From Flavobacteriaceae bacterium (lineage in GTDB: Bacteria > Bacteroidota > Bacteroidia > Flavobacteriales > Flavobacteriaceae): a stretch of DNA of 64,000 bases. Positions 49,817 through 64,000 of this stretch are shown one piece after another. Where the stretch lies: NCBI GenBank assembly GCA_018402385.1, contig JAGYJA010000005.1:1-64000 (forward strand). The letters are read 5' to 3'. The notes under the pieces are model-generated. The model ran no database searches. It worked only from the letters and a program-made list of their open reading frames with translations, and was not told the DNA's origin. The translations under genes and the position numbers were made by a program. Numbering within the stretch: position 1 is the stretch's first letter; each line of letters begins with the position of its first letter.

Positions 49817-49884
49817 AAAGTGGATGTATTCCTAAGTGTACACCTAAAACCATCCAAAACTTACTATTTAGCAATCTGCCTTAA

Positions 49885-49953
49885 AACAAAAAAAGCTCTA
49901 CGCACAAAGGCGAAAAGCTTCTCATCGGCTCTATCCCCAAGTTTACTTGGGGA
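49885..49953 (-). repeat. Degenerate copy A of the tRNA-Asp 3'-flank/terminator module
   Basis: AAACAAAAAAAGCTCTACGCACAAAGGCGAAAAGCTTCTCATCGGCTCTA..CCCCAAGTTTACTTGGGGA, ~90% identical over ~69 nt to copies B and C. Confidence 0.7.
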
Positions 49954-50012
49954 CCTTTCCGCCTTCCTTCGAACAATTGAACCTTTTCATTAACGTTCAC
50001 AAGATTACTTGG

Positions 50013-50032
50013 TGTGACAGGCAGGAATTCTA
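50013..50032 (-). pseudogene. tRNA-Asp remnant (anticodon-arm fragment)
   Basis: GTGACAGGCAGGAATTCTA matches 19/20 nt of the intact tRNA-Asp anticodon-stem/D-arm segment; the rest is unrecognisable. Confidence 0.5.
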
Positions 50033-50296
50033 TTATTTTTTAAGAATGTTTTTAGGCGACTTAATAAGTTGTTGGATTTGAGAATGGCTATATTTTTTTA
50101 AAACTTTTTCTCTTATTAATGCTAGTTTTTTTGTTTCAAGGCATTCAATATATATTAATTCCCAAGGCCCTTTGTTCTTGGTATAGTTGCTCTCGTTTTT
50201 ATTGTGGGAGATTATCCTTTTATATGGGTCTGTTGAATACCCCCTATAATATTTAGAAGAATTTTGACTAAAAATTATGTAAACGTAGTGTTCCAT
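50033..50296 (-). CDS. Small GIY-YIG nuclease-family protein
   Basis: YVYIIFSQNSSKYYRGYS...R...E (GIY-x10-YRG); 87 aa. Confidence 0.7.
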   Translation of the reverse strand: MEHYVYIIFSQNSSKYYRGYSTDPYKRIISHNKNESNYTKNKGPWELIYIECLETKKLALIREKVLKKYSHSQIQQLIKSPKNILKK

Positions 50297-50309
50297 TCGG
50301 AACTAATTT

Positions 50310-50441
50310 AAACAAAAAAAGCTCTACGCACAAAGGCGAAAAGCTTCTCATCGGCTCTACTACAAGCCTTTCCCCAAGTTTACTTGGGGACAACACAACA
50401 TCTTGACGGCTACTGAGCGTAGTCGAAGTATGCGGTCTGGA
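50310..50441 (-). repeat. Copy B of the tRNA-Asp 3'-flank/terminator module plus 9-nt tRNA 3' stub (island distal junction)
   Basis: 131/132 nt identical to copy C except CAAAGG versus AATAAT. Ends in CGGTCTGGA, the reverse complement of tRNA 3' end TCCAGACCG. Confidence 0.8.
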
Positions 50442-50448
50442 AGTTTCT

Positions 50449-50906
50449 GTAGCTGAGATATATTCAGCTAACAGATTTCCTTCTAAATCAAATTGGAGCA
50501 CTGGTTTTTTTCTGTTATCCTCTACTTTGTAATTCAAATACAGTTTAAAACTCCAAAAGAAGTCTTTACAACTTTTGTTTTTTCCCAAACAAGTATTGCT
50601 TATGGTTTTTTTATCTGCATTGACTGCATTGGCTACACTTTCTAGGGAATCATACTCAGAAACTAAGTTTTCATCTAAATCATACTGATAGACTGATTTT
50701 TTGAACCCTCCACCAACATCCCTGTTATATCCTTCTTCCTTACTGTTGTATTTAAAAATATACTCCTTTTCTTTTTCAGCTAAGTTCAAACGATTTTTTA
50801 GTTCTTCTTCAAACTGATGATCTCTGACTTGTTTTAATATATCAGCATAACCTGCTTCATCAACCTTAAAGGCCTTATTACAATTAGGGCGAATAATTTC
50901 ATTCAT
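50449..50906 (-). pseudogene. NUMOD1-repeat DNA-binding protein, 3' end truncated by the island boundary
   Basis: Two NUMOD1-like repeats (VYQYDLDENLVSEYDSLESVANAVNADKKTISNTCLGK; VLQFDLEGNLLAEYIS). The ORF has no stop of its own and reads through repeat copy B to 50268. Confidence 0.45.
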
Positions 50907-55466: not shown

Positions 55467-56597
55467 ATGATTTTTAAACAACTACTTTTAAGTTTAATAC
55501 TTTCTACACAGATTTCACCAAAAGTTTTTTTAGACGACAACGGAATTACCATAAGATGTAATACAAATGCTAAGGTAGGTGAAACTTATAATTTTAATGG
55601 AACACCTTATTTAATAGTTGACAATGAGCTATTAAAAAAATTAGTGAAAAACAAAGAGCCTCTAGAAAATGTTGTCACTACTTTTGTTACAGATATGAGC
55701 TACCTTTTTTATAAAAACAAAAATTTTAACGATAATATAAGCCATTGGGATGTTTCTAATGTTACCACTATGAGCTGGATGTTTGGTTTTTGCGAAGAAT
55801 TTAATGGGGATATAAGTAATTGGAATACTGAAAATGTAGAGTTTTTTAACGACATGTTTCATGGTACAAAAAATTTTAATGCAGACTTATCTAAGTGGAA
55901 TGTTAGTAAGGGTATACTATTTAATGGTATGTTTTTTGAAAGTTTTTTTAATAATGACATTAATTCTTGGGATGTTTCTAATGCTACTAATTTGAGTGGT
56001 ATGTTTGATAATGCTTTGGACTTTAATAAACCCTTATCTAATTGGGATGTTTCTAATGTTAAATTAATGGGAGGTATGTTTGCTGAAGCCATTAAATTTA
56101 ATCAAGATATAAGCATGTGGGATGTAGGTAAAGTTACTGATATGACAAACATGTTTAGAAATGCTGTTAAATTTGAATACGATTTATCATCTTGGTCACC
56201 AAGAATTTACATTACTCCAAAAAATTTTAATTTCAATAGCCCTGTTATAGGACCAGAGTTTAAAAAATCTACAAATATTTATTTACCTTCAATTATAACA
56301 GCAATATTTTTTACTCTAATTTATTTTTATAAAGTTTATCGTTTTAAGAGAAAAGAGGAATTTAAAGAGTATAATACCATTGTTAAGAAACTGATAAATA
56401 ACAAAAAAATTAATAATCATCACTTAACAAAAAGCGATTTGGATGAAATATTTGCCCTAACGCATTTAGAATATGAAAAACAAAAAGCCAAAAGATCTTC
56501 TTTAATTAAAGAGATTAATAATTACAAACCTGGATTAATTGATAGGGTGAGAGATCCAGAAGACAAACGCTCTTTTTTATATAAAATAAATTCTTAA
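55467..56597 (+). CDS. DUF285 / 26-residue-repeat surface protein (BspA-like) with C-terminal TM anchor
   Basis: About 8 tandem repeats of the form FNxDISxWDVSNVTxMxxMF, then a TM helix (IITAIFFTLIYFY) and a basic tail. Confidence 0.6.
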   Translation: MIFKQLLLSLILSTQISPKVFLDDNGITIRCNTNAKVGETYNFNGTPYLIVDNELLKKLVKNKEPLENVVTTFVTDMSYLFYKNKNFNDNISHWDVSNVTTMSWMFGFCEEFNGDISNWNTENVEFFNDMFHGTKNFNADLSKWNVSKGILFNGMFFESFFNNDINSWDVSNATNLSGMFDNALDFNKPLSNWDVSNVKLMGGMFAEAIKFNQDISMWDVGKVTDMTNMFRNAVKFEYDLSSWSPRIYITPKNFNFNSPVIGPEFKKSTNIYLPSIITAIFFTLIYFYKVYRFKRKEEFKEYNTIVKKLINNKKINNHHLTKSDLDEIFALTHLEYEKQKAKRSSLIKEINNYKPGLIDRVRDPEDKRSFLYKINS

Positions 56598-56971
56598 ACA
56601 TACAAAATAAAAATTCTAATAGTAATTGAACTAGATTAGGAATAGTAAGTTTTTAAGGTAAAATACCTTTAATATCCACCTCTATTTACATTCAAAACTC
56701 TTGCTGGATAGGGCGGACAAAGTGAGCATCAGTAAATTATCAATAAATCTTTCTATTGCAATAGTTTACTGTCGTAAACCACATGGCTCAAATTATCCGC
56801 TGCGAGTAGTTAGGTTATCCACCCCATCCAATTGTAAGCTTACCTACCTAATCAGAAATCTTATTGGATTAAACTCCTTTGATAAGATTCCCCTTCTTTT
56901 CTTATCATACAGATTTCCTTTTGTAAAGAAAATCGATTTTTTTATACATAATGAATTTTTTATATGATAAA

Positions 56972-57018
56972 ACATATAATATGAATTTAAATGACCTAAA
57001 TATATGTTTTTACATATA
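56972..57018 (+). promoter_or_regulatory. Two tandem palindromes TATATG-N6-CATATA (putative HipB operators) upstream of the HTH gene
   Basis: 56972-56989 TATATGATAAAACATATA and 57001-57018 TATATGTTTTTACATATA, centres ~29 bp apart, 40-90 bp before the HTH start. Confidence 0.45.
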
Positions 57019-57058
57019 ATTTTATATATTTGTATTTAATTATATTTTTAAGCATATA

Positions 57059-57268
57059 ATGAGTGGTTTATCAGAATTTGTAAAGCAACGTAGAAAAAGT
57101 GTCAATCTCACCCAAGAGGAATTTGCCGAACGTGCCGGTGTGGCACTGACCGTTATACGTAAGATTGAACAGGGAAAGACCAACCTGAACATGGAAAAGG
57201 TAAATCTGGTATTGAACATGTTCGGACATGAACTGGCTCCCGTTCAGATAAAAAGACAGGATAAATGA
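57059..57268 (+). CDS. XRE-family HTH regulator (HipB-like)
   Basis: 69-aa ORF with an HTH segment LTQEEFAERAGVALTVIRKIEQGK. Confidence 0.75.
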   Translation: MSGLSEFVKQRRKSVNLTQEEFAERAGVALTVIRKIEQGKTNLNMEKVNLVLNMFGHELAPVQIKRQDK

Positions 57269-57600
57269 GACAGGGCCTTGTATATTATAACGACCATTTG
57301 GCTGGAACCATCACAGAAACAAATGATGGAGAATACATCTTTCAGTATGATGATAAGTATGTTGAGCAATATCCTAATGACTTTATCACCTTTACCATGC
57401 CCGTAGCCCATACTCCCTATAAAGACAAACGACTGTTCCCTTTTTTTGAGGGTCTTATACCTGAGGGCTGGCTGTTGAACATAGCCTCTGAAAACTGGAA
57501 AATAAACCGAAATGACCGCATGGGACTTTTATTGGCATGTTGCCATAATTGTATTGGTGCGGTGAGTGTTGAACCTATAATCAAGGAGAATGAAAGGTAA
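57265..57600 (+). CDS. HipA N-terminal subdomain protein (HipS-like)
   Basis: 111-aa ORF with a HipA_N pattern (LVYYNDHLAGTI...FQYDDKY...LFPFFEGLIPEGW); overlaps both neighbours. Confidence 0.7.
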   Translation: MRQGLVYYNDHLAGTITETNDGEYIFQYDDKYVEQYPNDFITFTMPVAHTPYKDKRLFPFFEGLIPEGWLLNIASENWKINRNDRMGLLLACCHNCIGAVSVEPIIKENER

Positions 57601-58531
57601 GTGCTTATATTGTTATGGTGAGACAACCGGTGGAAAGGACTTTCACGATAAGTGCTCTATGGCGTTTTTTGGGTCCACAAGTCCCCCAACAATAGATTAC
57701 TCCTTGAACCAAATGGACGAATTGGCCAAGAGCGTTGTGGAGCGCAGTGTTGCCGTTCCCGGTGTGCAACCCAAGCTGTCCATGTCACTAATAAAGGAAA
57801 CACGGGAAAAGGCCGACACAAGACTCACCGTGATTGGTGCGTTGGGCGGTGAGTTCATTCTAAAACCACCATCGGAGCTTTATCCTGAAATGCCAGAGAA
57901 CGAACACCTGACCATGAAAATAGCGGAACGCTTGGGAATAAAGACTGTTCCCTGTTCCCTTATCAGATTGGCATCAGGTGAACTCTCATATATTACAAAG
58001 CGGATTGACAGAACGCCTGATGGTAAAAAGGTCCATATGTTGGATATGTTCCAAATAACGGAGGCCTTTGACAAATACAAAAGTTCGATGGAAAAAATAG
58101 GCAAGGCCATCGACCTATACTCCAGTAATACGCTCCTAGACAAAGTCCTGTATTTTGAATTGGTCGTTTTTTCATTCATTACCGGTAACAATGATATGCA
58201 CCTGAAGAACTTTTCCTTGATAAAAGACCCTGTTGGCTGGACTTTGTCCCCTGCTTATGATTTACTGAACGCATCCATTGCGAATCCGGATGATGATGAA
58301 GAGCTTGCCCTAACACTTAACGGTAAAAAAAGAAAATTAAGGTCTGATGATTTTGTTGCTTTGGGCAAGGGAATGGAGCTATCGAACAAGCAGATAAAAG
58401 GGGCTTTCAAAAGAACCGTTGATAAGTTAGCTGTAATAACAGAATGGATAGATAAATCCTTCTTGTCGGCAGACATGAAAGGAAAATATAAAGAAATTAT
58501 ATCCTCAAGAACCAAGGCAATAGGGTTGTAA
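57590..58531 (+). CDS. HipA-like Ser/Thr kinase core (HipT-like) with N-terminal CxxC...H..C motif
   Basis: 313-aa ORF with VPGVQPKLS and DMHLKNFSL (HipA catalytic-loop type) motifs. Its ATG lies 10 nt before the upstream stop. Confidence 0.7.
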   Translation: MKGKCLYCYGETTGGKDFHDKCSMAFFGSTSPPTIDYSLNQMDELAKSVVERSVAVPGVQPKLSMSLIKETREKADTRLTVIGALGGEFILKPPSELYPEMPENEHLTMKIAERLGIKTVPCSLIRLASGELSYITKRIDRTPDGKKVHMLDMFQITEAFDKYKSSMEKIGKAIDLYSSNTLLDKVLYFELVVFSFITGNNDMHLKNFSLIKDPVGWTLSPAYDLLNASIANPDDDEELALTLNGKKRKLRSDDFVALGKGMELSNKQIKGAFKRTVDKLAVITEWIDKSFLSADMKGKYKEIISSRTKAIGL

Positions 58532-58558: not shown

Positions 58559-59485
58559 TTAACTTAGCAATGGGTTATCCCACCGCATAAACCAATTCAA
58601 AATAATCGTTCCGTTTGATATTGTCAAACACTTCCAGCCCGGTCCTATTGTTGAACAGGTCTCCAAAGTTCTCGGCGAGCATCTCCCAGCCCTGCATCCC
58701 GACCTCGTAAGAATTCGGAAGAGGTCTGATAGTATGTTTTTTTCATGCAAAAAAACGATTTCTTTTTTACCTGTTTTATTTTTAAAAGCCAAAAAGGGAT
58801 CTTTACCTAAGTATTCATTAACAATGACATATTTAATCACCTTTCTAAAGCGTTGAATTACCTTATTAATGGTACTTTGCTGAAAGCTTTTTTCAGTTAC
58901 CAAGTAGTATTGTAAATCATCTAAAAATGAACCTTTAAGTTGTTTTAATAAGATATCTGAGGTTTTAAATTTCCACTTGATAAAGCTTTCAATGTGAGTG
59001 TAAGTTTCTAAGTATTTACTGTATGTGACCTGTTGAATTTCTTTACCTACAAGGTTTTTGATGTGTTCGTTGTGTAAGTTGAAGGTAGCAAGAACTCCCA
59101 TTTCTTCAGTAGTACTTTCTCCTTTGTATTTAGAGAGGATATCAACAATTGTAAAGGAAGCTCCGGCTAGTTTTAATTTAAGGTAAGAATCTTGAAGCTT
59201 TTGCCTGATTAATGTGATGTTGTCATTAATATAATCACTGTCTTCTTGGTCTTTCGCAAACTGGCTATTAATATCCCAGTTTTCAGGTTTAATAAAGAGT
59301 CCTGTTGAGAATTCCTTAATATTTCTATCAACAGTAATTCTACAACGAATGGGGCACTTGCCAGATTTGTTGATTTTGGATTTTTGAATGACATACAAAA
59401 TTCCTAATGTGCTACTTTTCATACTTTTAGGTGTTAGAAAAGTGGGGCACTCGAAAATATTTTGGGGCACTAAAATGACTCCCAA
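58559..59485 (-). pseudogene. Tyrosine-recombinase/integrase remnant: N-terminal arm/SAM-like domains only, fused to an unrelated GC-rich fragment
   Basis: Bacteroidota-type integrase N-terminus (KSGKCPIRCRITVDRNIKEFSTG...). The catalytic domain is absent. The last ~60 codons are GC-rich and unrelated; the alternate frame ends ...NRTGLEVFDNIKRNDYFELVYAVG*. Confidence 0.55.
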
Positions 59486-59532
59486 AATTTATAAAAACCA
59501 TCCAAAACTTGCTTTCTAGCAGAAATGACTAT

Positions 59533-59664
59533 AAACAAAAAAAGCTCTACGCAATAATGCGAAAAGCTTCTCATCGGCTCTACTACAAGCCTTTCCCCAA
59601 GTTTACTTGGGGACAACACAACATCTTGACGGCTACTGAGCGTAGTCGAAGTATGCGGTCTGGA
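59533..59664 (-). repeat. Copy C of the 3'-flank/terminator module (native downstream region of the intact tRNA-Asp)
   Basis: CCCCAAGT-TT-ACTTGGGG perfect hairpin; AGCTTTTCGC..GCGTAGAGCT stem followed by T7 on the tRNA strand. Confidence 0.8.
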
Positions 59665-59729
59665 CGGGACTCGAACCCGCGACCCCCTGCGTGACAGGCA
59701 GGTATTCTAACCAACTGAACTACCAGACC
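59656..59729 (-). tRNA. tRNA-Asp (anticodon GTC)
   Basis: GGTCTGGTAGTTCAGTTGGTTAGAATACCTGCCTGTCACGCAGGGGGTCGCGGGTTCGAGTCCCGTCCAGACCG; cloverleaf with 7-bp acceptor stem and GTC anticodon; CCA not encoded. Confidence 0.9.
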
Positions 59730-61899: not shown

Positions 61900-64000
61900 T
61901 TAATTAAGCTTGTACAAAAAGCTTTCCTTGTCTAGAGCATCAAGAAGCTCTTGTGAAATTTGAACCTTTTGTTTTCTACTACTCAATTGTAATTGAATGT
62001 TTTCTTCTGGCTCAAAAAAATAGAAATCAAGGGAATGTTTTCCCTTATGAGATTTCAATAAGTTTTTCAACGCTTCAACTTGTGCGTCGAGAACTTCATC
62101 CATCTTAAGCTGAATGGTAAGTCTCTTGGAATTGTTTTCTAAAATATCTTGTAGCAACTGAATGGATGTAAATTGAATACGTGTATCTGTTTTTTCACCG
62201 GTATTTTTATTGACCCACCCTTCTTTGGTAAAAACCCTGCAGAATAAAAATCCGTTGGGAATAAGAAAATGACGAAATTTGAGATACTCCTCACCAAAAA
62301 TTCTGAATTCAAAAGAATCACTATAATCTTCTATGATAAAGGAAGCCCAGCCTTTCCCATTTTTGGAAACGCGATGCTGTACCTCTGTGATGACCCCTCC
62401 AAAAATAAGTTCCTTGTTGATGAAGTTTTCTATATGATAAAAGTCCGCAATGCGGTTTCTGCAAAAGGTATTTATTTCGGTTTTAAAGTCGTCGAGTGGG
62501 TGCCCTGAAATATAGATGCCCACCACTTCTTTTTCCAATTTGAGCTTTTTCATAGTACCCCATTCTTCACAGGGAGGCACTTCCGGTTCCGGAATCTGGA
62601 CATCACTGGCTTCCCCAAACAAACTGATTTGTGAAGAGTTTTCATTCTCCTGAAACTTAGCGGCATAGCGCAACACTTTTTCAAGAAAAATAATACCATC
62701 GCCCTCATCGTGTAAATACTGTGCCCTGTGGGTGTCAAAACTGTCAAAGCCACCGGCCAAAGCAAGGTTTTCAAAGGCTTTTTTGTTTGCTGATCTTAAA
62801 TCGATGCGTTTTGCCAAATCAAAAACCGATTTGTATTTACCGTCTTTTCTATTCTCAACAATGGTTGCAACGGCATTGCCGCCCACACCTTTTACAGCAC
62901 CCATCCCAAACCTTACTGCACCCTGGTCATTGACTGTGAATTTGTAGAAGGATTCATTGACATCAGGACCCAATACTTCTAAGCCCATACGCTTACATTC
63001 TTCCATGAATTTTGTAACTTCCTTGATGTCATTCATGTTGTTTGACAGCACAGCCGCCATATATTCTGCGGGATAATTGGCCTTGAGATAGGCGGTTTGA
63101 TACCCAATCCACGCATAGCAGGTGGAATGTGACTTGTTGAAGGCATAACTGGCGAAGGCTTCCCAGTCTTTCCAGATTTTTTCCAGAGTATCCACAGGAT
63201 GCCCATTGGCATTTCCACCTTCCAGGAATTTGGGTTTCATCTTTTCCAGTACCGAAAAGATTTTTTTACCCATCGCTTTCCGCAAGACATCGGCATCACC
63301 TTTGGTAAAACCGGCAAGTTCTTGCGAAAGCAACATCACCTGCTCCTGATAAACCGTAATACCGTAGGTTTCCTTCAGGTATTTTTCCATGATGGGAAGG
63401 TCATAAGTGATTTCTTCCTCACCGTTTTTTCTTCGGATAAAACTGGGTATGTATTCTATGGGACCCGGCCGGTAAAGTGCATTCATCGCAATCAAATCTG
63501 CAAAAACCGTGGGTTTCAGGTCTTTCATGTATTTCTGCATTCCGGCAGATTCATACTGGAACGTAGCGACCGTTTCCCCACGTTGAAACAATTCATAGGT
63601 TTTTTCATCGTCAAGCGGAAACGTGTCCGGGTCAAGGTCGATGTTTCTTTTAATCTTCACCAGCTCAACTGCGTCCTTGATGATGGTCAGGTTTTTCAGT
63701 CCTAAAAAGTCCATTTTCAGGAGTCCGGCTTCTTCAACGACAGAGTTGTCAAACTGGGTGACATAGAGGTCGGAGTCTTTTGCGGTTGCCACCGGAACAT
63801 AGTTGGTGATATCACCGGGCGTAATAATCACACCACAGGCGTGGATTCCTGTATTTCTGACAGAACCCTCCAAAATCCGCGCCTGATTAATGGTCTGCGC
63901 CTGGAGGTTATCACCTTTTGATATGGTGATCAATTCATTAACTTTTTCAAGATCCTCAGCGCGGAAGGCTTTGCGGAGTTCACTTTCTGAATACCCAAAG
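61900..64000 (-). CDS. dnaE: DNA polymerase III alpha subunit, C-terminal portion (gene continues beyond window end)
   Basis: Finger/beta-binding/OB regions of DnaE (GHPVDTLEKIWKDWEAFASYAFNKSH...). The reading frame is open to coordinate 64000. Confidence 0.9.
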   Translation of the reverse strand, partial: FGYSESELRKAFRAEDLEKVNELITISKGDNLQAQTINQARILEGSVRNTGIHACGVIITPGDITNYVPVATAKDSDLYVTQFDNSVVEEAGLLKMDFLGLKNLTIIKDAVELVKIKRNIDLDPDTFPLDDEKTYELFQRGETVATFQYESAGMQKYMKDLKPTVFADLIAMNALYRPGPIEYIPSFIRRKNGEEEITYDLPIMEKYLKETYGITVYQEQVMLLSQELAGFTKGDADVLRKAMGKKIFSVLEKMKPKFLEGGNANGHPVDTLEKIWKDWEAFASYAFNKSHSTCYAWIGYQTAYLKANYPAEYMAAVLSNNMNDIKEVTKFMEECKRMGLEVLGPDVNESFYKFTVNDQGAVRFGMGAVKGVGGNAVATIVENRKDGKYKSVFDLAKRIDLRSANKKAFENLALAGGFDSFDTHRAQYLHDEGDGIIFLEKVLRYAAKFQENENSSQISLFGEASDVQIPEPEVPPCEEWGTMKKLKLEKEVVGIYISGHPLDDFKTEINTFCRNRIADFYHIENFINKELIFGGVITEVQHRVSKNGKGWASFIIEDYSDSFEFRIFGEEYLKFRHFLIPNGFLFCRVFTKEGWVNKNTGEKTDTRIQFTSIQLLQDILENNSKRLTIQLKMDEVLDAQVEALKNLLKSHKGKHSLDFYFFEPEENIQLQLSSRKQKVQISQELLDALDKESFLYKLN

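What the first reader, a model, noticed from the sequence alone, without database searches (positions are those of the whole stretch)
57059..58531. Tripartite HipB / HipS-like / HipT-like kinase toxin-antitoxin module
The layout is an HTH regulator (69 aa), a stand-alone HipA N-subdomain-1 protein (111 aa), and a HipA kinase core lacking that subdomain (313 aa, starting with a CxxC..H..C motif). All three overlap: ATGA-type coupling, with the kinase ATG 10 nt before the upstream stop. This mirrors the HipBST architecture of enteropathogenic E. coli, where the split-off N-terminal piece (HipS) is the antitoxin. The overlapping starts argue for genuine separate cistrons, not a frameshift artefact.
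Basis: partly seen in the sequence, partly recalled or inferred. Interest (0 to 1): 0.65.

Follow-up and report, generated by a model that had tools for sequence, protein, structure and literature searches.

The report
Ordinary three-gene HipBST toxin-antitoxin cassette
This is an intact but very common three-gene toxin-antitoxin cassette (DNA-binding repressor, small antitoxin, kinase toxin) of the Legionella HipBST type, widespread in Bacteroidota; its only mildly new features are a probable zinc-binding knuckle on the kinase and a missing self-phosphorylation serine.

Summary
Three overlapping + strand genes encode a 69-aa HTH protein (57059-57268), a 111-aa stand-alone HipA N-subdomain-1 protein (57265-57600) and a 313-aa HipA-core kinase (57590-58531).

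- **Closest relative.** The kinase is much closer to Legionella HipT-Lp (E 3e-46, TM 0.89) than to E. coli O127 HipT (1e-19).
- **Target.** The HipT-Lp clade has an unknown target (neither TrpS nor GltX), so the proposed TrpS/GltX target is unsupported.

The split is genuine. In 79 of 79 related loci with upstream DNA the order HTH-HipS-HipT is kept, mostly with the same 4-nt and 11-nt overlaps. The catalytic residues (K92, D202, H204, N207, D224) and the HipS inhibitory Glu-Gly-Trp are conserved.

I also found the likely control region: three 20-bp palindromes (TTATAT-N8-ATATAA) 40 nt apart, at -99, -59 and -19 from the start codon, with a Bacteroidota -7 box between the last two. These are conserved across about 70 loci.

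The family is very large (at least 579 species genomes), and its spread in Bacteroidota is already published. Two variant features:
- **Cys/His motif.** C5, C8, H19 and C22 are kept all-or-none (111 of 118 sequences keep all four), but the motif is absent from the solved HipTs.
- **Autophosphorylation position.** It is Ala here.

Verdict: a new member of a known kind; low interest.

The parts
56960..56979 (.). Distal putative HipB operator (TTATATGATAAAACATATAA), at -99 from the hipB ATG
   Evidence: Palindrome TTATAT-N8-ATATAA. It is one of only three such sites (at most 1 mismatch) in the 64-kb window. A site at the equivalent position is present in most of 75 related upstream regions.
57000..57019 (.). 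Middle putative HipB operator (ATATATGTTTTTACATATAA), at -59
   Evidence: Spacing between sites is 40 nt in 110 of 127 intervals across the loci. Only 5 such sites occur in the remaining 570,768 nt of locus DNA.
57025..57032 (+). Putative Bacteroidota-type -7 promoter box TATATTTG (TAnnTTTG)
   Evidence: An exact TAnnTTTG lies at -34 in 46 of 72 aligned upstream regions, with column conservation of 0.69-0.99. The assignment as a promoter is inferred from the known Bacteroidota sigma-A consensus.
57040..57059 (.). Proximal putative HipB operator (TTATATTTTTAAGCATATAA); its last base is the A of the hipB ATG
   Evidence: The last site starts at -19 in 71 of 75 loci, and columns -19 to +2 are 0.94-1.00 conserved.
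57059..57268 (+). hipB-like gene: 69-aa Xre/HTH_3 regulator (Y4mF / couple_hipB type)
   Evidence: PF01381 8.8e-12; TIGR03070 1.1e-19. Identical to WP_166400472.1 of Psychroflexus maritimus. 75-90% identical across 78 loci.
57265..57600 (+). hipS-like gene: 111-aa stand-alone HipA N-subdomain-1 protein, the putative antitoxin
   Evidence: PF13657 1.4e-25; TIGR03071 1.2e-27. HipS-Lp 5.7e-13, HipS-Ec 6.5e-11.
57460..57471 (+). Codons for P66-E67-G68-W69 of HipS-like, equivalent to the inhibitory Glu63/Trp65 of HipS-Ec
   Evidence: Aligned to 'PEGW' of HipS-Ec; invariant in 80 of 80 HipS-like sequences. The role of Trp65 is taken from PMC10627512.
57590..58531 (+). hipT-like gene: 313-aa HipA-core Ser/Thr kinase lacking N-subdomain-1, the putative toxin
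   Evidence: PF07804 7.6e-43. HipT-Lp 3.3e-46, HipT-Ec 1e-19. AF2 pLDDT 93.1, Foldseek TM 0.89 to 7wcf.
57602..57655 (+). Codons for C5-x2-C8 ... H19-x2-C22: putative treble-clef-like zinc knuckle in the N-terminal minidomain
   Evidence: Invariant in 117 of 117 close homologues. In the diverse alignment C5 is invariant and C8, H19 and C22 are at least 90% conserved. All four ligands are kept in 111 of 118 diverse representatives and one or none in the other 7. In the model, a hairpin (3-4 / 11-12) is followed by helix 20-27, with pLDDT 91-96.
57746..57775 (+). Codons for the Gly-rich (P-) loop S53-V-A55-V-P57-G-V-Q-P-K62
   Evidence: Aligned to HipT-Ec G-M-S57-I-S59-G-Y-Q-P-K and HipT-Lp K-M-S54-V-Q-G-V-Q-K-K. 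Position 55 is Ala in 88 of 117 homologues, Ser in 27 and Thr in 2; P57 and G58 are invariant.
58193..58210 (+). Codons for the catalytic motif D202-M-H204-L-K206-N207
   Evidence: Aligned to the NNDMH motif of HipT-Ec (D210/H212). D202 and K206 are invariant and H204 and N207 at least 90% conserved in 88 diverse sequences.
58259..58261 (+). Codon for D224, the Mg2+-binding Asp (equivalent to HipT-Ec D233)
   Evidence: Aligned 'YD' motif; invariant in the diverse alignment.
58559..59485 (-). Context: tyrosine-integrase remnant (Arm-DNA-binding and SAM-like domains only)
   Evidence: PF17293 2.3e-16 and PF13102 2.1e-12, with no catalytic domain. tblastn with an intact 414-aa integrase matches only its residues 1-225, at 59422-58748.
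59655..59729 (-). Context: tRNA-Asp (GTC), the probable integration site of the island that carries the cassette
   Evidence: ARAGORN; Rfam RF00005, 69.6 bits.
59532..59664 (.). Context: right copy of the 133-nt direct repeat; includes the last 10 nt of tRNA-Asp
   Evidence: 97.7% identical to 50309-50441; extends to 173 nt at 88% identity.
50309..50441 (.). Context: left copy of the 133-nt direct repeat bounding the ~9.1-kb island

Best explanation
This is an intact tripartite type II toxin-antitoxin operon of the HipBST kind, in the Legionella HipBST-Lp lineage that is common in Bacteroidota. It is carried as a self-contained mobile cassette, here on a decayed island at tRNA-Asp in a Psychroflexus-like flavobacterium.

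Shown here:
- Three translationally overlapping genes, with all domains and motifs intact.
- Gene order and overlaps conserved across related loci.
- A conserved array of three palindromes plus a -7 box upstream of hipB.

Inferred by homology with the experimentally studied E. coli O127 and L. pneumophila systems:
1. HipB dimers bind the three operators (-99, -59, -19), which bracket the -7 box and cover the start of the transcript, and so repress the operon.
2. HipS binds the N-lobe of HipT and, through its Glu67-Gly-Trp69 motif, holds the Gly-rich loop in an ejected state that cannot bind ATP.
3. When HipS is lost or outnumbered, HipT (K92, D202, H204, N207, D224) phosphorylates an essential protein, probably in translation, and arrests growth.

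The target is unknown for this lineage. The canonical autophosphorylation serine is Ala here, so control probably rests on HipS and HipB rather than on self-phosphorylation. The N-terminal Cys2-His-Cys knuckle most likely binds zinc and stabilises the minidomain.
For: - ORFs and overlaps.
- Domain assignments.
- Best solved relatives are HipT-Lp / HipS-Lp, then HipT-Ec / HipS-Ec, and only weakly HipA.
- Confident model (pLDDT 93.1) with TM 0.89 to HipT-Lp, 0.83 to HipT-Ec and 0.64-0.70 to HipA.
- Catalytic and ATP-binding residues are invariant or at least 90% conserved in 117 close and 88 diverse homologues.
- HipS P-E-G-W is invariant in 80 of 80 sequences.
- The arrangement is kept in 79 of 79 loci, with overlaps of -4 and -11 nt predominating.
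- Operators: three sites in 51 of 75 loci and two in 19; 40-nt spacing in 110 of 127 intervals; 5 sites in 570 kb of control DNA; no other site in the window.
- Conserved TAnnTTTG box.
- Published precedent: HipB-Lp binds three evenly spaced operators with 6-nt inverted repeats (PMC10653801), and the same layout is visible in L. adelaidensis and on a Runella plasmid.
- Mechanism of HipS inhibition: PMC10627512 and PMC9325769.
- Mobility: near-identical cassettes sit in unrelated contexts, homologues occur on 13 plasmids including a conjugative one, there is no conserved fourth gene, and in the window the cassette lies in a repeat-bounded tRNA-Asp island with higher GC than its flanks.
Against: - Nothing here tests function. 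Toxicity, neutralisation, DNA binding and metal binding are all inferred.
- The position equivalent to the autophosphorylated Ser of HipA, HipT-Ec and HipT-Lp is Ala55, and the second position is Pro57. Regulation may therefore differ from both studied systems.
- HipB-like scores 70.1 bits against TIGR03070, just below that model's 71.65 cut-off.
- The unusually high conservation of all three proteins across orders (59-90% identity) is atypical for fast-evolving TA modules. It could mean a role beyond simple addiction.
Confidence: 0.85

Rival explanations
1. The same three genes act mainly as an abortive-infection anti-phage system, with the kinase released on infection, rather than as an addiction or persistence module. 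This concerns the biological role and is compatible with the same molecular mechanism.
For: - Weak PADLOC hits to the candidate defence pair PDC-M03A (2.9e-11) and PDC-M03B (2e-4).
- HipA-family kinases have been validated in phage defence in another architecture, HipAD / DS-6 (PMC13092281).
- The cassette is mobile and sits in a horizontally acquired island.
Against: - No recognised defence genes flank it, either in the window or recurrently in 78 related loci.
- The PADLOC matches are partial and to candidate systems only.
- No HipBST system has been shown to defend against phage in the papers read here.
Confidence: 0.25
2. The two HipA pieces are a frameshifted or decaying hipA gene (a sequencing or assembly artefact, or a pseudogene), not two real cistrons.
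For: Fused ~440-aa relatives exist in the same clade and are collinear with HipS-like + linker + HipT-like, so a fused ancestor or relative is plausible.
Against: - The split is present in 79 of 79 independent genomes, with the same 11-nt overlap in most.
- The kinase start Met and the residues after it (M1, C5, L6, C8) are invariant, and the length is 312-315 aa.
- The fused forms contain a 25-35-aa linker that is entirely absent here.
- Both proteins are under clear purifying selection.
Confidence: 0.01
3. The kinase is a domesticated, non-toxic signalling or regulatory kinase. HipS and HipB would then be its regulatory partners rather than antitoxins.
For: - Very high conservation across orders, with the HTH protein the most conserved (75-90%).
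- Loss of the canonical autophosphorylation Ser.
- A conserved extra Cys/His module that could sense metal or redox state.
Against: - Patchy, context-free distribution, plasmid carriage and island location are hallmarks of selfish TA cassettes.
- The closest characterised homologue, HipT-Lp, is toxic and remains toxic as S54A (PMC10653801).
- All catalytic residues are intact.
Confidence: 0.07

Closest known systems
HipBST-Lp of Legionella pneumophila (Lpg2368-Lpg2369-Lpg2370; PDB 7vkb, 7vkc, 7wcf, 8ezr)
   Same: - Gene order HTH-HipS-HipT with overlapping genes.
- It is the best sequence match (HipT 3.3e-46, HipS 5.7e-13) and the best structural match (TM 0.89 over the full length, including the N-terminal minidomain).
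- Residues that bind HipS and cradle the P-loop are kept: R138, D140 and R141 correspond to R131, D133 and R134 in HipT-Lp.
- Three evenly spaced HipB operators with 6-nt inverted-repeat arms lie upstream.
- The lineage is already reported as widespread in Bacteroidota.
   Different: - About 38% identity only.
- Operator sequence and period differ: TTATAT-N8-ATATAA every 40 nt here, against TTACTG-N6-CAGTAA every 72 nt in Legionella.
- The proximal operator abuts the start codon.
- The P-loop reads A-V-P instead of S-V-Q, so there is no Ser54 equivalent.
- HipS has Trp at the inhibitory position, as in E. coli, where HipS-Lp has Ile.
- HipT here has the full C-C-H-C set, whereas Legionella HipT keeps only the first Cys.
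HipBST of enteropathogenic E. coli O127:H6 (PDB 7ab3-7ab5)
   Same: - Tripartite architecture.
- HipS Glu-x-Trp inhibitory motif.
- HipT catalytic Asp/His, Mg-binding Asp and the Lys-Tyr pair (K162/Y163 here correspond to K161/Y162).
- N-terminal minidomain.

   Different: - More distant: E 1e-19, about 22% structural-alignment identity, TM 0.83.
- The S-I-S double autophosphorylation motif is absent here.
- TrpS is the E. coli target but is not established for this lineage.
- According to PMC10653801 the E. coli promoter lacks the Legionella-type operators.
Canonical HipBA (E. coli K-12 and Shewanella oneidensis HipA)
   Same: Same kinase fold and catalytic motifs, and an HTH partner that represses through upstream palindromes. 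HipS-like corresponds to HipA N-subdomain-1.
   Different: - The N-subdomain-1 is a separate protein here.
- HipA matches only at about 1e-5 (kinase) and 0.3 (HipS-like), with TM 0.64-0.70.
- In HipBA the antitoxin is HipB, whereas in HipBST it is HipS.
- There is no Ser150 equivalent.
Fused ~440-460-aa HipA-type kinases of the same clade (e.g. P0180, P0203; probably the 'HipBA-Bu' type used as a seed in PMC10653801)
   Same: Collinear with HipS-like (33-52% identity) followed by the Cys/His knuckle and the kinase core (34-44% identity).
   Different: They are a single polypeptide with a 25-35-aa linker between the HipS-like part and the knuckle. I did not examine their operon partners.

Membership tests
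HipBST tripartite toxin-antitoxin | Three co-directional, tightly coupled genes in the order hipB (HTH), hipS, hipT | tested here: met
   ORFs with 4-nt and 11-nt overlaps; the same order in 79 of 79 related loci.
HipBST tripartite toxin-antitoxin | HipS: a stand-alone protein of about 100 aa homologous to HipA N-subdomain-1 | tested here: met
   PF13657 1.4e-25 and TIGR03071 1.2e-27. HipS-Lp 5.7e-13, HipS-Ec 6.5e-11, HI_0666 6e-10. Aligns to the N-terminus of fused relatives.
HipBST tripartite toxin-antitoxin | HipT: a HipA core kinase that lacks N-subdomain-1 and has a short N-terminal minidomain | tested here: met
   HipA_C covers residues 56-279. 313 aa. Full-length structural match to apo HipT-Lp, TM 0.89.
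HipBST tripartite toxin-antitoxin | [quoted passage not shown] | tested here: met
   G58, Q60, K62, K92, D202, H204, N207 and D224 are present and are invariant or at least 90% conserved. I did not separately delimit the activation loop; K162/Y163 (HipT-Ec K161/Y162) are invariant.
HipBST tripartite toxin-antitoxin | Accessory, not defining: Ser/Thr at the autophosphorylation position next to the Gly-rich loop (HipT-Ec S57/S59, HipT-Lp S54, HipA S150) | tested here: not met
   The aligned residues are Ala55 and Pro57. Position 55 is Ala in 88 of 117 close homologues. 21 of 118 diverse family members also lack S/T at both positions. Ser53, two residues upstream, is conserved in 110 of 117 and could substitute. 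HipT-Lp S54A remains toxic, so this feature is not required for membership.
HipBST tripartite toxin-antitoxin | HipS inhibitory motif inserted next to the Gly-rich loop (Glu63 / Trp65 in HipS-Ec) | tested here: met
   P66-E67-G68-W69 aligns with PEGW of HipS-Ec and is invariant in 80 of 80 sequences.
HipBST tripartite toxin-antitoxin | HipB autoregulates through upstream operators (Legionella: three evenly spaced sites with 6-nt inverted repeats) | tested here: met
   The architecture is met at sequence level: three TTATAT-N8-ATATAA sites 40 nt apart, conserved across loci and absent elsewhere. Binding itself was not tested.
HipBST tripartite toxin-antitoxin | HipT is growth-inhibitory; HipS (not HipB) neutralises it | not testable with these tools
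   Requires expression and rescue assays.
HipBST tripartite toxin-antitoxin | Target is an aminoacyl-tRNA synthetase (TrpS for HipT-Ec) | not testable with these tools
   For the nearest characterised relative, HipT-Lp, neither TrpS nor GltX rescues toxicity and the target is unknown (PMC10653801).
Canonical HipBA | N-subdomain-1 covalently part of the kinase; two-gene operon | tested here: not met
   N-subdomain-1 is a separate cistron here and in 79 of 79 loci.
Treble-clef / zinc-knuckle metal site (N-terminal minidomain of HipT-like) | CxxC knuckle on a beta-hairpin, with the second ligand pair at the N-terminus of a helix | tested here: met
   C5/C8 lie between strands 3-4 and 11-12; H19/C22 lie at the start of helix 20-27; pLDDT 91-96. 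The four ligands are kept all-or-none: 111 of 118 keep all four, 7 keep one or none, and no sequence keeps two or three. I could not obtain coordinates to measure ligand distances.
Treble-clef / zinc-knuckle metal site (N-terminal minidomain of HipT-like) | Actual binding of Zn2+ | not testable with these tools
   Needs metal analysis of purified protein or a crystal structure. Neither solved HipT lineage has the full ligand set: a Legionella HipT (L. adelaidensis) keeps only the first Cys, and the N-terminal 67 aa find no HipT in the PDB.

The most novel reading that the evidence does not exclude
The invariant Cys2-His-Cys knuckle in the HipT N-terminal minidomain, possibly together with the near-invariant C92-C93-x-x-C96 cluster of HipS, is a zinc- or redox-sensitive switch. 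It would control HipS release or kinase activity and replace Gly-rich-loop autophosphorylation, whose serine is absent here, as the regulatory input. Both crystallised HipTs would then be atypical members that lost this element. For comparison, I put the simpler claim, that the motif is a structural zinc site not yet described for Hip kinases, at about 0.6.
Probability: 0.12. Interest if true: 0.5.

Novelty: new member of a known kind. Interest (0 to 1): 0.25.

Why it matters
The locus adds little by itself. It is one more copy of a cassette found in at least 579 species-level genomes, and its presence in Bacteroidota is already published.

The comparative work around it gives three modestly useful points for people who study Hip kinases:
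1. **A likely missed metal site.** Most members of the HipT-Lp lineage carry an all-or-none conserved Cys2-His-Cys knuckle that the two lineages with solved HipT structures lack. The structural picture of the 'minidomain of unknown significance' is therefore probably missing a metal site.
2. **Autophosphorylation is not universal.** About a fifth of diverse family members, including this one, have no Ser/Thr at either autophosphorylation position. This agrees with the finding that HipT-Lp S54A is still toxic, and argues that autophosphorylation is not a universal control.
3. **A testable operator/promoter layout.** The Bacteroidota cassettes have a very regular three-operator array with a 40-nt period, wrapped around a -7 box and ending at the start codon. 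This is easy to test and extends the Legionella operator model.

Tried and rejected
- **First structure prediction.** The AlphaFold run with 42 close homologues gave pLDDT 44.6 and I discarded it. A diverse 88-sequence alignment fixed this.
- **Source contig.** The exact-sequence look-up for the window kinase found nothing, so the source is inferred as Psychroflexus-like from an identical HipB and a 94%-identical kinase.
- **N-terminus against the PDB.** A search with the N-terminal 67 aa gave only chance hits.
- **Zinc literature.** Searches linking HipA/HipT with zinc or treble-clef motifs returned nothing relevant. The Gerdes 2021, Zhen 2022 and Lin 2023 papers do not mention zinc.
- **Promoter and terminator scan.** The sigma-70 promoter and terminator scan was at background (9 promoter-like sites against 7.3 expected; 2 terminator-like sites against 2.0 expected) and is not informative for Bacteroidota.
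- **Fourth gene.** A search for a conserved fourth gene in the flanks of 78 loci found none; the best cluster was integrases, in 5 loci.
- **Other RNA genes.** An Rfam scan of 49-60.5 kb found only tRNA-Asp.
- **DnaE.** The apparent mid-domain start of DnaE at 61900-63933 is only the gene running off the window edge.
- **Second copy.** There is no second hipA-like copy in the window.
- **Frameshift reading.** Considered and rejected.
Full report
**1. Observation**

The window carries three + strand ORFs exactly as reported: 57059-57268 (69 aa), 57265-57600 (111 aa) and 57590-58531 (313 aa). The first junction is an ATGA overlap. At the second, the kinase ATG (57590) lies 11 nt inside the preceding ORF.

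Pfam and NCBIfam assign:
- HTH_3 and couple_hipB (Y4mF type; 70.1 bits against a cut-off of 71.65) to the first;
- Couple_hipA (1.4e-25) to the second;
- HipA_C (7.6e-43) to the third.

The kinase begins M-K-G-K-C5-L-Y-C8 ... H19-D-K-C22.

**2. What it is**

Against all PDB sequences, the kinase is closest to Legionella pneumophila HipT-Lp (3.3e-46 over residues 46-311), then E. coli O127 HipT (1e-19). It matches HipA of Shewanella and E. coli only at 1e-6 to 1e-4. The 111-aa protein is closest to HipS-Lp (5.7e-13), HipS-Ec (6.5e-11) and H. influenzae HI_0666 (6e-10), and matches the N-terminus of HipA only at E 0.3.

A first AlphaFold model from close homologues was unusable (pLDDT 44.6). A model from a diverse 88-sequence alignment is confident (pLDDT 93.1, pTM 0.92). 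It superposes on apo HipT-Lp at TM 0.89 over the full length, on HipT-Ec at 0.83 and on HipA at 0.64-0.70.

The module is therefore a HipBST system of the Legionella lineage rather than the EPEC lineage.

**3. Is the split real?**

Yes.
- In the 80 loci fetched, all 79 that have upstream DNA carry a HipS-like gene directly upstream of the kinase and an HTH gene upstream of that. The S-T overlap is 11 nt and the B-S overlap 4 nt in most.
- Kinase homologues are 312-315 aa with an invariant start region.
- The 50%-clustered library also contains fused relatives of about 440-460 aa. They are collinear with HipS-like (33-52% identity), a 25-35-aa linker, and then the Cys/His motif and kinase core (34-44% identity).

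Together the two proteins do cover one HipA-type protein, and split and fused forms coexist in this clade. The frameshift reading is rejected.

**4. Functional residues**

In 117 close homologues:
- K92, G58, Q60, K62, D202 and N207 are invariant.
- H204 is kept in 116 of 117 and D224 in 116 of 117.

In the diverse alignment (mean column identity 38%):
- The only invariant columns are C5, K162, Y163, D202, K206 and D224.
- C8, H19, C22, G58, Q60, K62, K92, H204 and N207 are at least 90% conserved.

D202/H204 and D224 align with HipT-Ec D210/H212 and D233. K162/Y163 align with K161/Y162, which contact the phosphoserines in HipT-Ec. In HipS-like, P66-E67-G68-W69 is invariant in 80 of 80 sequences. 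It aligns with the Glu63/Trp65 motif that HipS-Ec wedges next to the Gly-rich loop.

The kinase looks catalytically competent, and the antitoxin has the known inhibitory motif.

**5. Two variant features**

(a) *The Gly-rich loop.* It reads S53-V-A55-V-P57-G-V-Q-P-K. The position aligned with HipA S150, HipT-Ec S57 and HipT-Lp S54 is Ala55, and the HipT-Ec S59 position is Pro57. Among close homologues position 55 is Ala in 88, Ser in 27 and Thr in 2, while Ser53 is kept in 110. Among 118 diverse representatives, 21 have no Ser/Thr at either canonical position.

[quoted passage not shown] A-psi-P is a further state. Because HipT-Lp S54A and S54D remain toxic (PMC10653801), this probably means that autophosphorylation is dispensable in this lineage, not that the kinase is dead.

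(b) *The Cys/His motif.*
- C5, C8, H19 and C22 are invariant in 117 of 117 close homologues.
- Across 118 diverse representatives, 111 keep all four, 7 keep one or none, and none keep two or three. This all-or-none pattern is what a single metal site would give.
- In the model the CxxC lies on a beta-hairpin and the HxxC at the start of helix 20-27, which is the treble-clef arrangement, with pLDDT 91-96.
- A Legionella HipT (L. adelaidensis, 'lpg2370 family') keeps only the first Cys (MKHCPITYEKIS...NYSQRGL). A Runella plasmid copy keeps all four.
- The N-terminal 67 aa find no HipT in the PDB.
- None of the Hip papers I read mentions zinc. Zhen et al. did note that residues 4-28 of HipT-Lp resemble part of the E3 ligase FANCL.

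I infer a structural zinc site that is ancestral or widespread in this lineage and has been lost in the proteobacterial HipTs studied so far. Metal binding itself is untested.

**6. Control region (outside the reported coordinates)**

Upstream of hipB there are three copies of a 20-bp palindrome, TTATAT-N8-ATATAA, at 56960, 57000 and 57040. These are -99, -59 and -19 from the ATG, and the last copy ends on the A of the start codon.
- The same palindrome occurs in 72 of 75 related upstream regions.
- At one mismatch or fewer, 51 of 75 regions have three sites and 19 have two.
- Spacing is 40 nt in 110 of 127 intervals, and the last site starts at -19 in 71 of 75.
- Only 5 sites occur in the other 570,768 nt of locus DNA, and none elsewhere in the 64-kb window.
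- Between the middle and proximal sites lies a conserved TAnnTTTG box (57025-57032; exact in 46 of 72). This matches the Bacteroidota -7 promoter element (established knowledge) and would put the transcription start just upstream of the proximal operator.

This mirrors the experimentally shown Legionella arrangement: three evenly spaced operators with 6-nt inverted repeats, bound by HipB-Lp in EMSA, the proximal one 24 nt upstream of the HipB start codon (PMC10653801). In L. adelaidensis I read TTACTG-N6-CAGTAA three times with a 72-nt period. On the Runella plasmid I read three TACCC...GGTATAAA sites with a period of about 40 nt, the last abutting the ATG. The architecture is shared, and the operator sequence tracks the HipB lineage.

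**7. Context**

- The cassette (GC 42-46%) lies in low-GC DNA (22-33%).
- Next to it on the minus strand is an integrase remnant that keeps only the Arm-binding and SAM-like domains. An intact 414-aa integrase matches only its residues 1-225.
- Beyond the remnant lies tRNA-Asp.
- A 133-nt direct repeat (97.7% identical) at 59532-59664 and 50309-50441 brackets about 9.1 kb. Its right copy includes the last 10 nt of the tRNA.
- The bracketed DNA holds the remnant, hipBST, and genes for DUF285, NT5C, DUF2779 and NUMOD1 proteins.
- Near-identical cassettes (94-96%) in P. maritimus and in metagenomes sit in unrelated neighbourhoods.
- No fourth gene is conserved.
- Homologues occur on 13 plasmids, including a conjugative Runella plasmid with the same three-gene layout.

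The cassette behaves as a self-contained mobile unit.

**8. Mechanism (inferred)**

- HipB represses the operon through the three operators.
- HipS holds the HipT Gly-rich loop ejected through Glu67/Trp69.
- Free HipT phosphorylates an essential protein and stops growth.

The target is unknown. For HipT-Lp neither TrpS nor GltX rescues toxicity, and phosphoproteomics gave only candidates such as PheS. An anti-phage role is possible: there are weak PADLOC PDC-M03A/B hits, and HipA-family kinases have been validated in defence in a different architecture. That role is untested, and no defence genes surround the cassette.

**9. Comparison and novelty**

Every defining HipBST feature that can be read from sequence is met. 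The accessory autophosphorylation serine is not.

Lin et al. 2023 already state that HipBST-Lp homologues are widely distributed in the FCB superphylum. The protein databases bear this out:
- 5,371 representatives at E below 1e-3.

This is a new member of a known kind. The Cys2-His-Cys knuckle, the A-V-P loop and the 40-nt operator array are lineage-level variants worth a note to specialists, but they are not specific to this locus.

**10. Verdict**

The finding is real and was correctly interpreted, but it is ordinary. Interest 0.25.

Noticed in passing
window 50309-50441 and 59532-59664 (also 49846-49954 and 50014-50032): A 133-nt direct repeat (97.7% identical) brackets a ~9.1-kb low-GC island next to tRNA-Asp. 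The right copy contains the last 10 nt of the tRNA. A partial third copy (81%) and a 19-nt tRNA-Asp-like fragment lie just left of the island, which suggests tandem or successive integrations.
   Followed up: partly
window 58559-59485 (-): Tyrosine-integrase remnant. Only the Arm-DNA-binding and SAM-like domains remain (homology to residues 1-225 of a 414-aa integrase). The catalytic half is missing, so the island is probably immobilised.
   Followed up: yes
window 57538-57552 (HipS-like residues C92, C93, C96): The HipS-like protein has a near-invariant C-C-x-x-C cluster (0.99, 1.00 and 1.00 in 80 sequences), just before the conserved I-G-A-V motif. HipS-Lp and HipS-Ec have no Cys there. Its significance is unknown; it could relate to the Cys/His knuckle of the kinase.
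   Followed up: no
L001-L080 (hipB-like genes) compared with window 57059-57268: The HTH protein is the most conserved of the three (75-90% identity across orders, against 63-79% for HipS-like and 59-70% for the kinase), and its operators are conserved too. This is the reverse of the usual pattern, in which antitoxins and regulators diverge faster than toxins.
   Followed up: partly
window 55467-56597 (+): A 376-aa DUF285 repeat protein with a C-terminal hydrophobic segment lies immediately upstream of the cassette in extremely low-GC DNA (22-29%). It contains four ~62-nt internal DNA repeats (55724-56157).
   Followed up: no
window 50268-50906 (-): A NUMOD1-domain ORF (homing-endonuclease-associated DNA-binding domain) has its 3' end running into the left island repeat. 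A short ORF (59470-59619) overlaps the corresponding part of the right repeat.
   Followed up: no
P0149, P0180, P0189, P0191, P0200, P0201, P0203, P0217, P0226, P0233, P0265: These are fused HipS-linker-HipT proteins (~440-460 aa) within the same clade. They carry the CxxC...HxxC motif at about residues 130-150, which shows that gene fission or fusion has occurred inside the HipT-Lp-like lineage.
   Followed up: partly
L023 (Saccharospirillaceae MAG), L036 (Delongbacteria MAG), L006 and L052 (Chlorobiota MAGs): Cassettes 65-68% identical to the window's, with the same operators, occur in MAGs assigned outside Bacteroidota. This is consistent with horizontal transfer, or with binning errors.
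   Followed up: no
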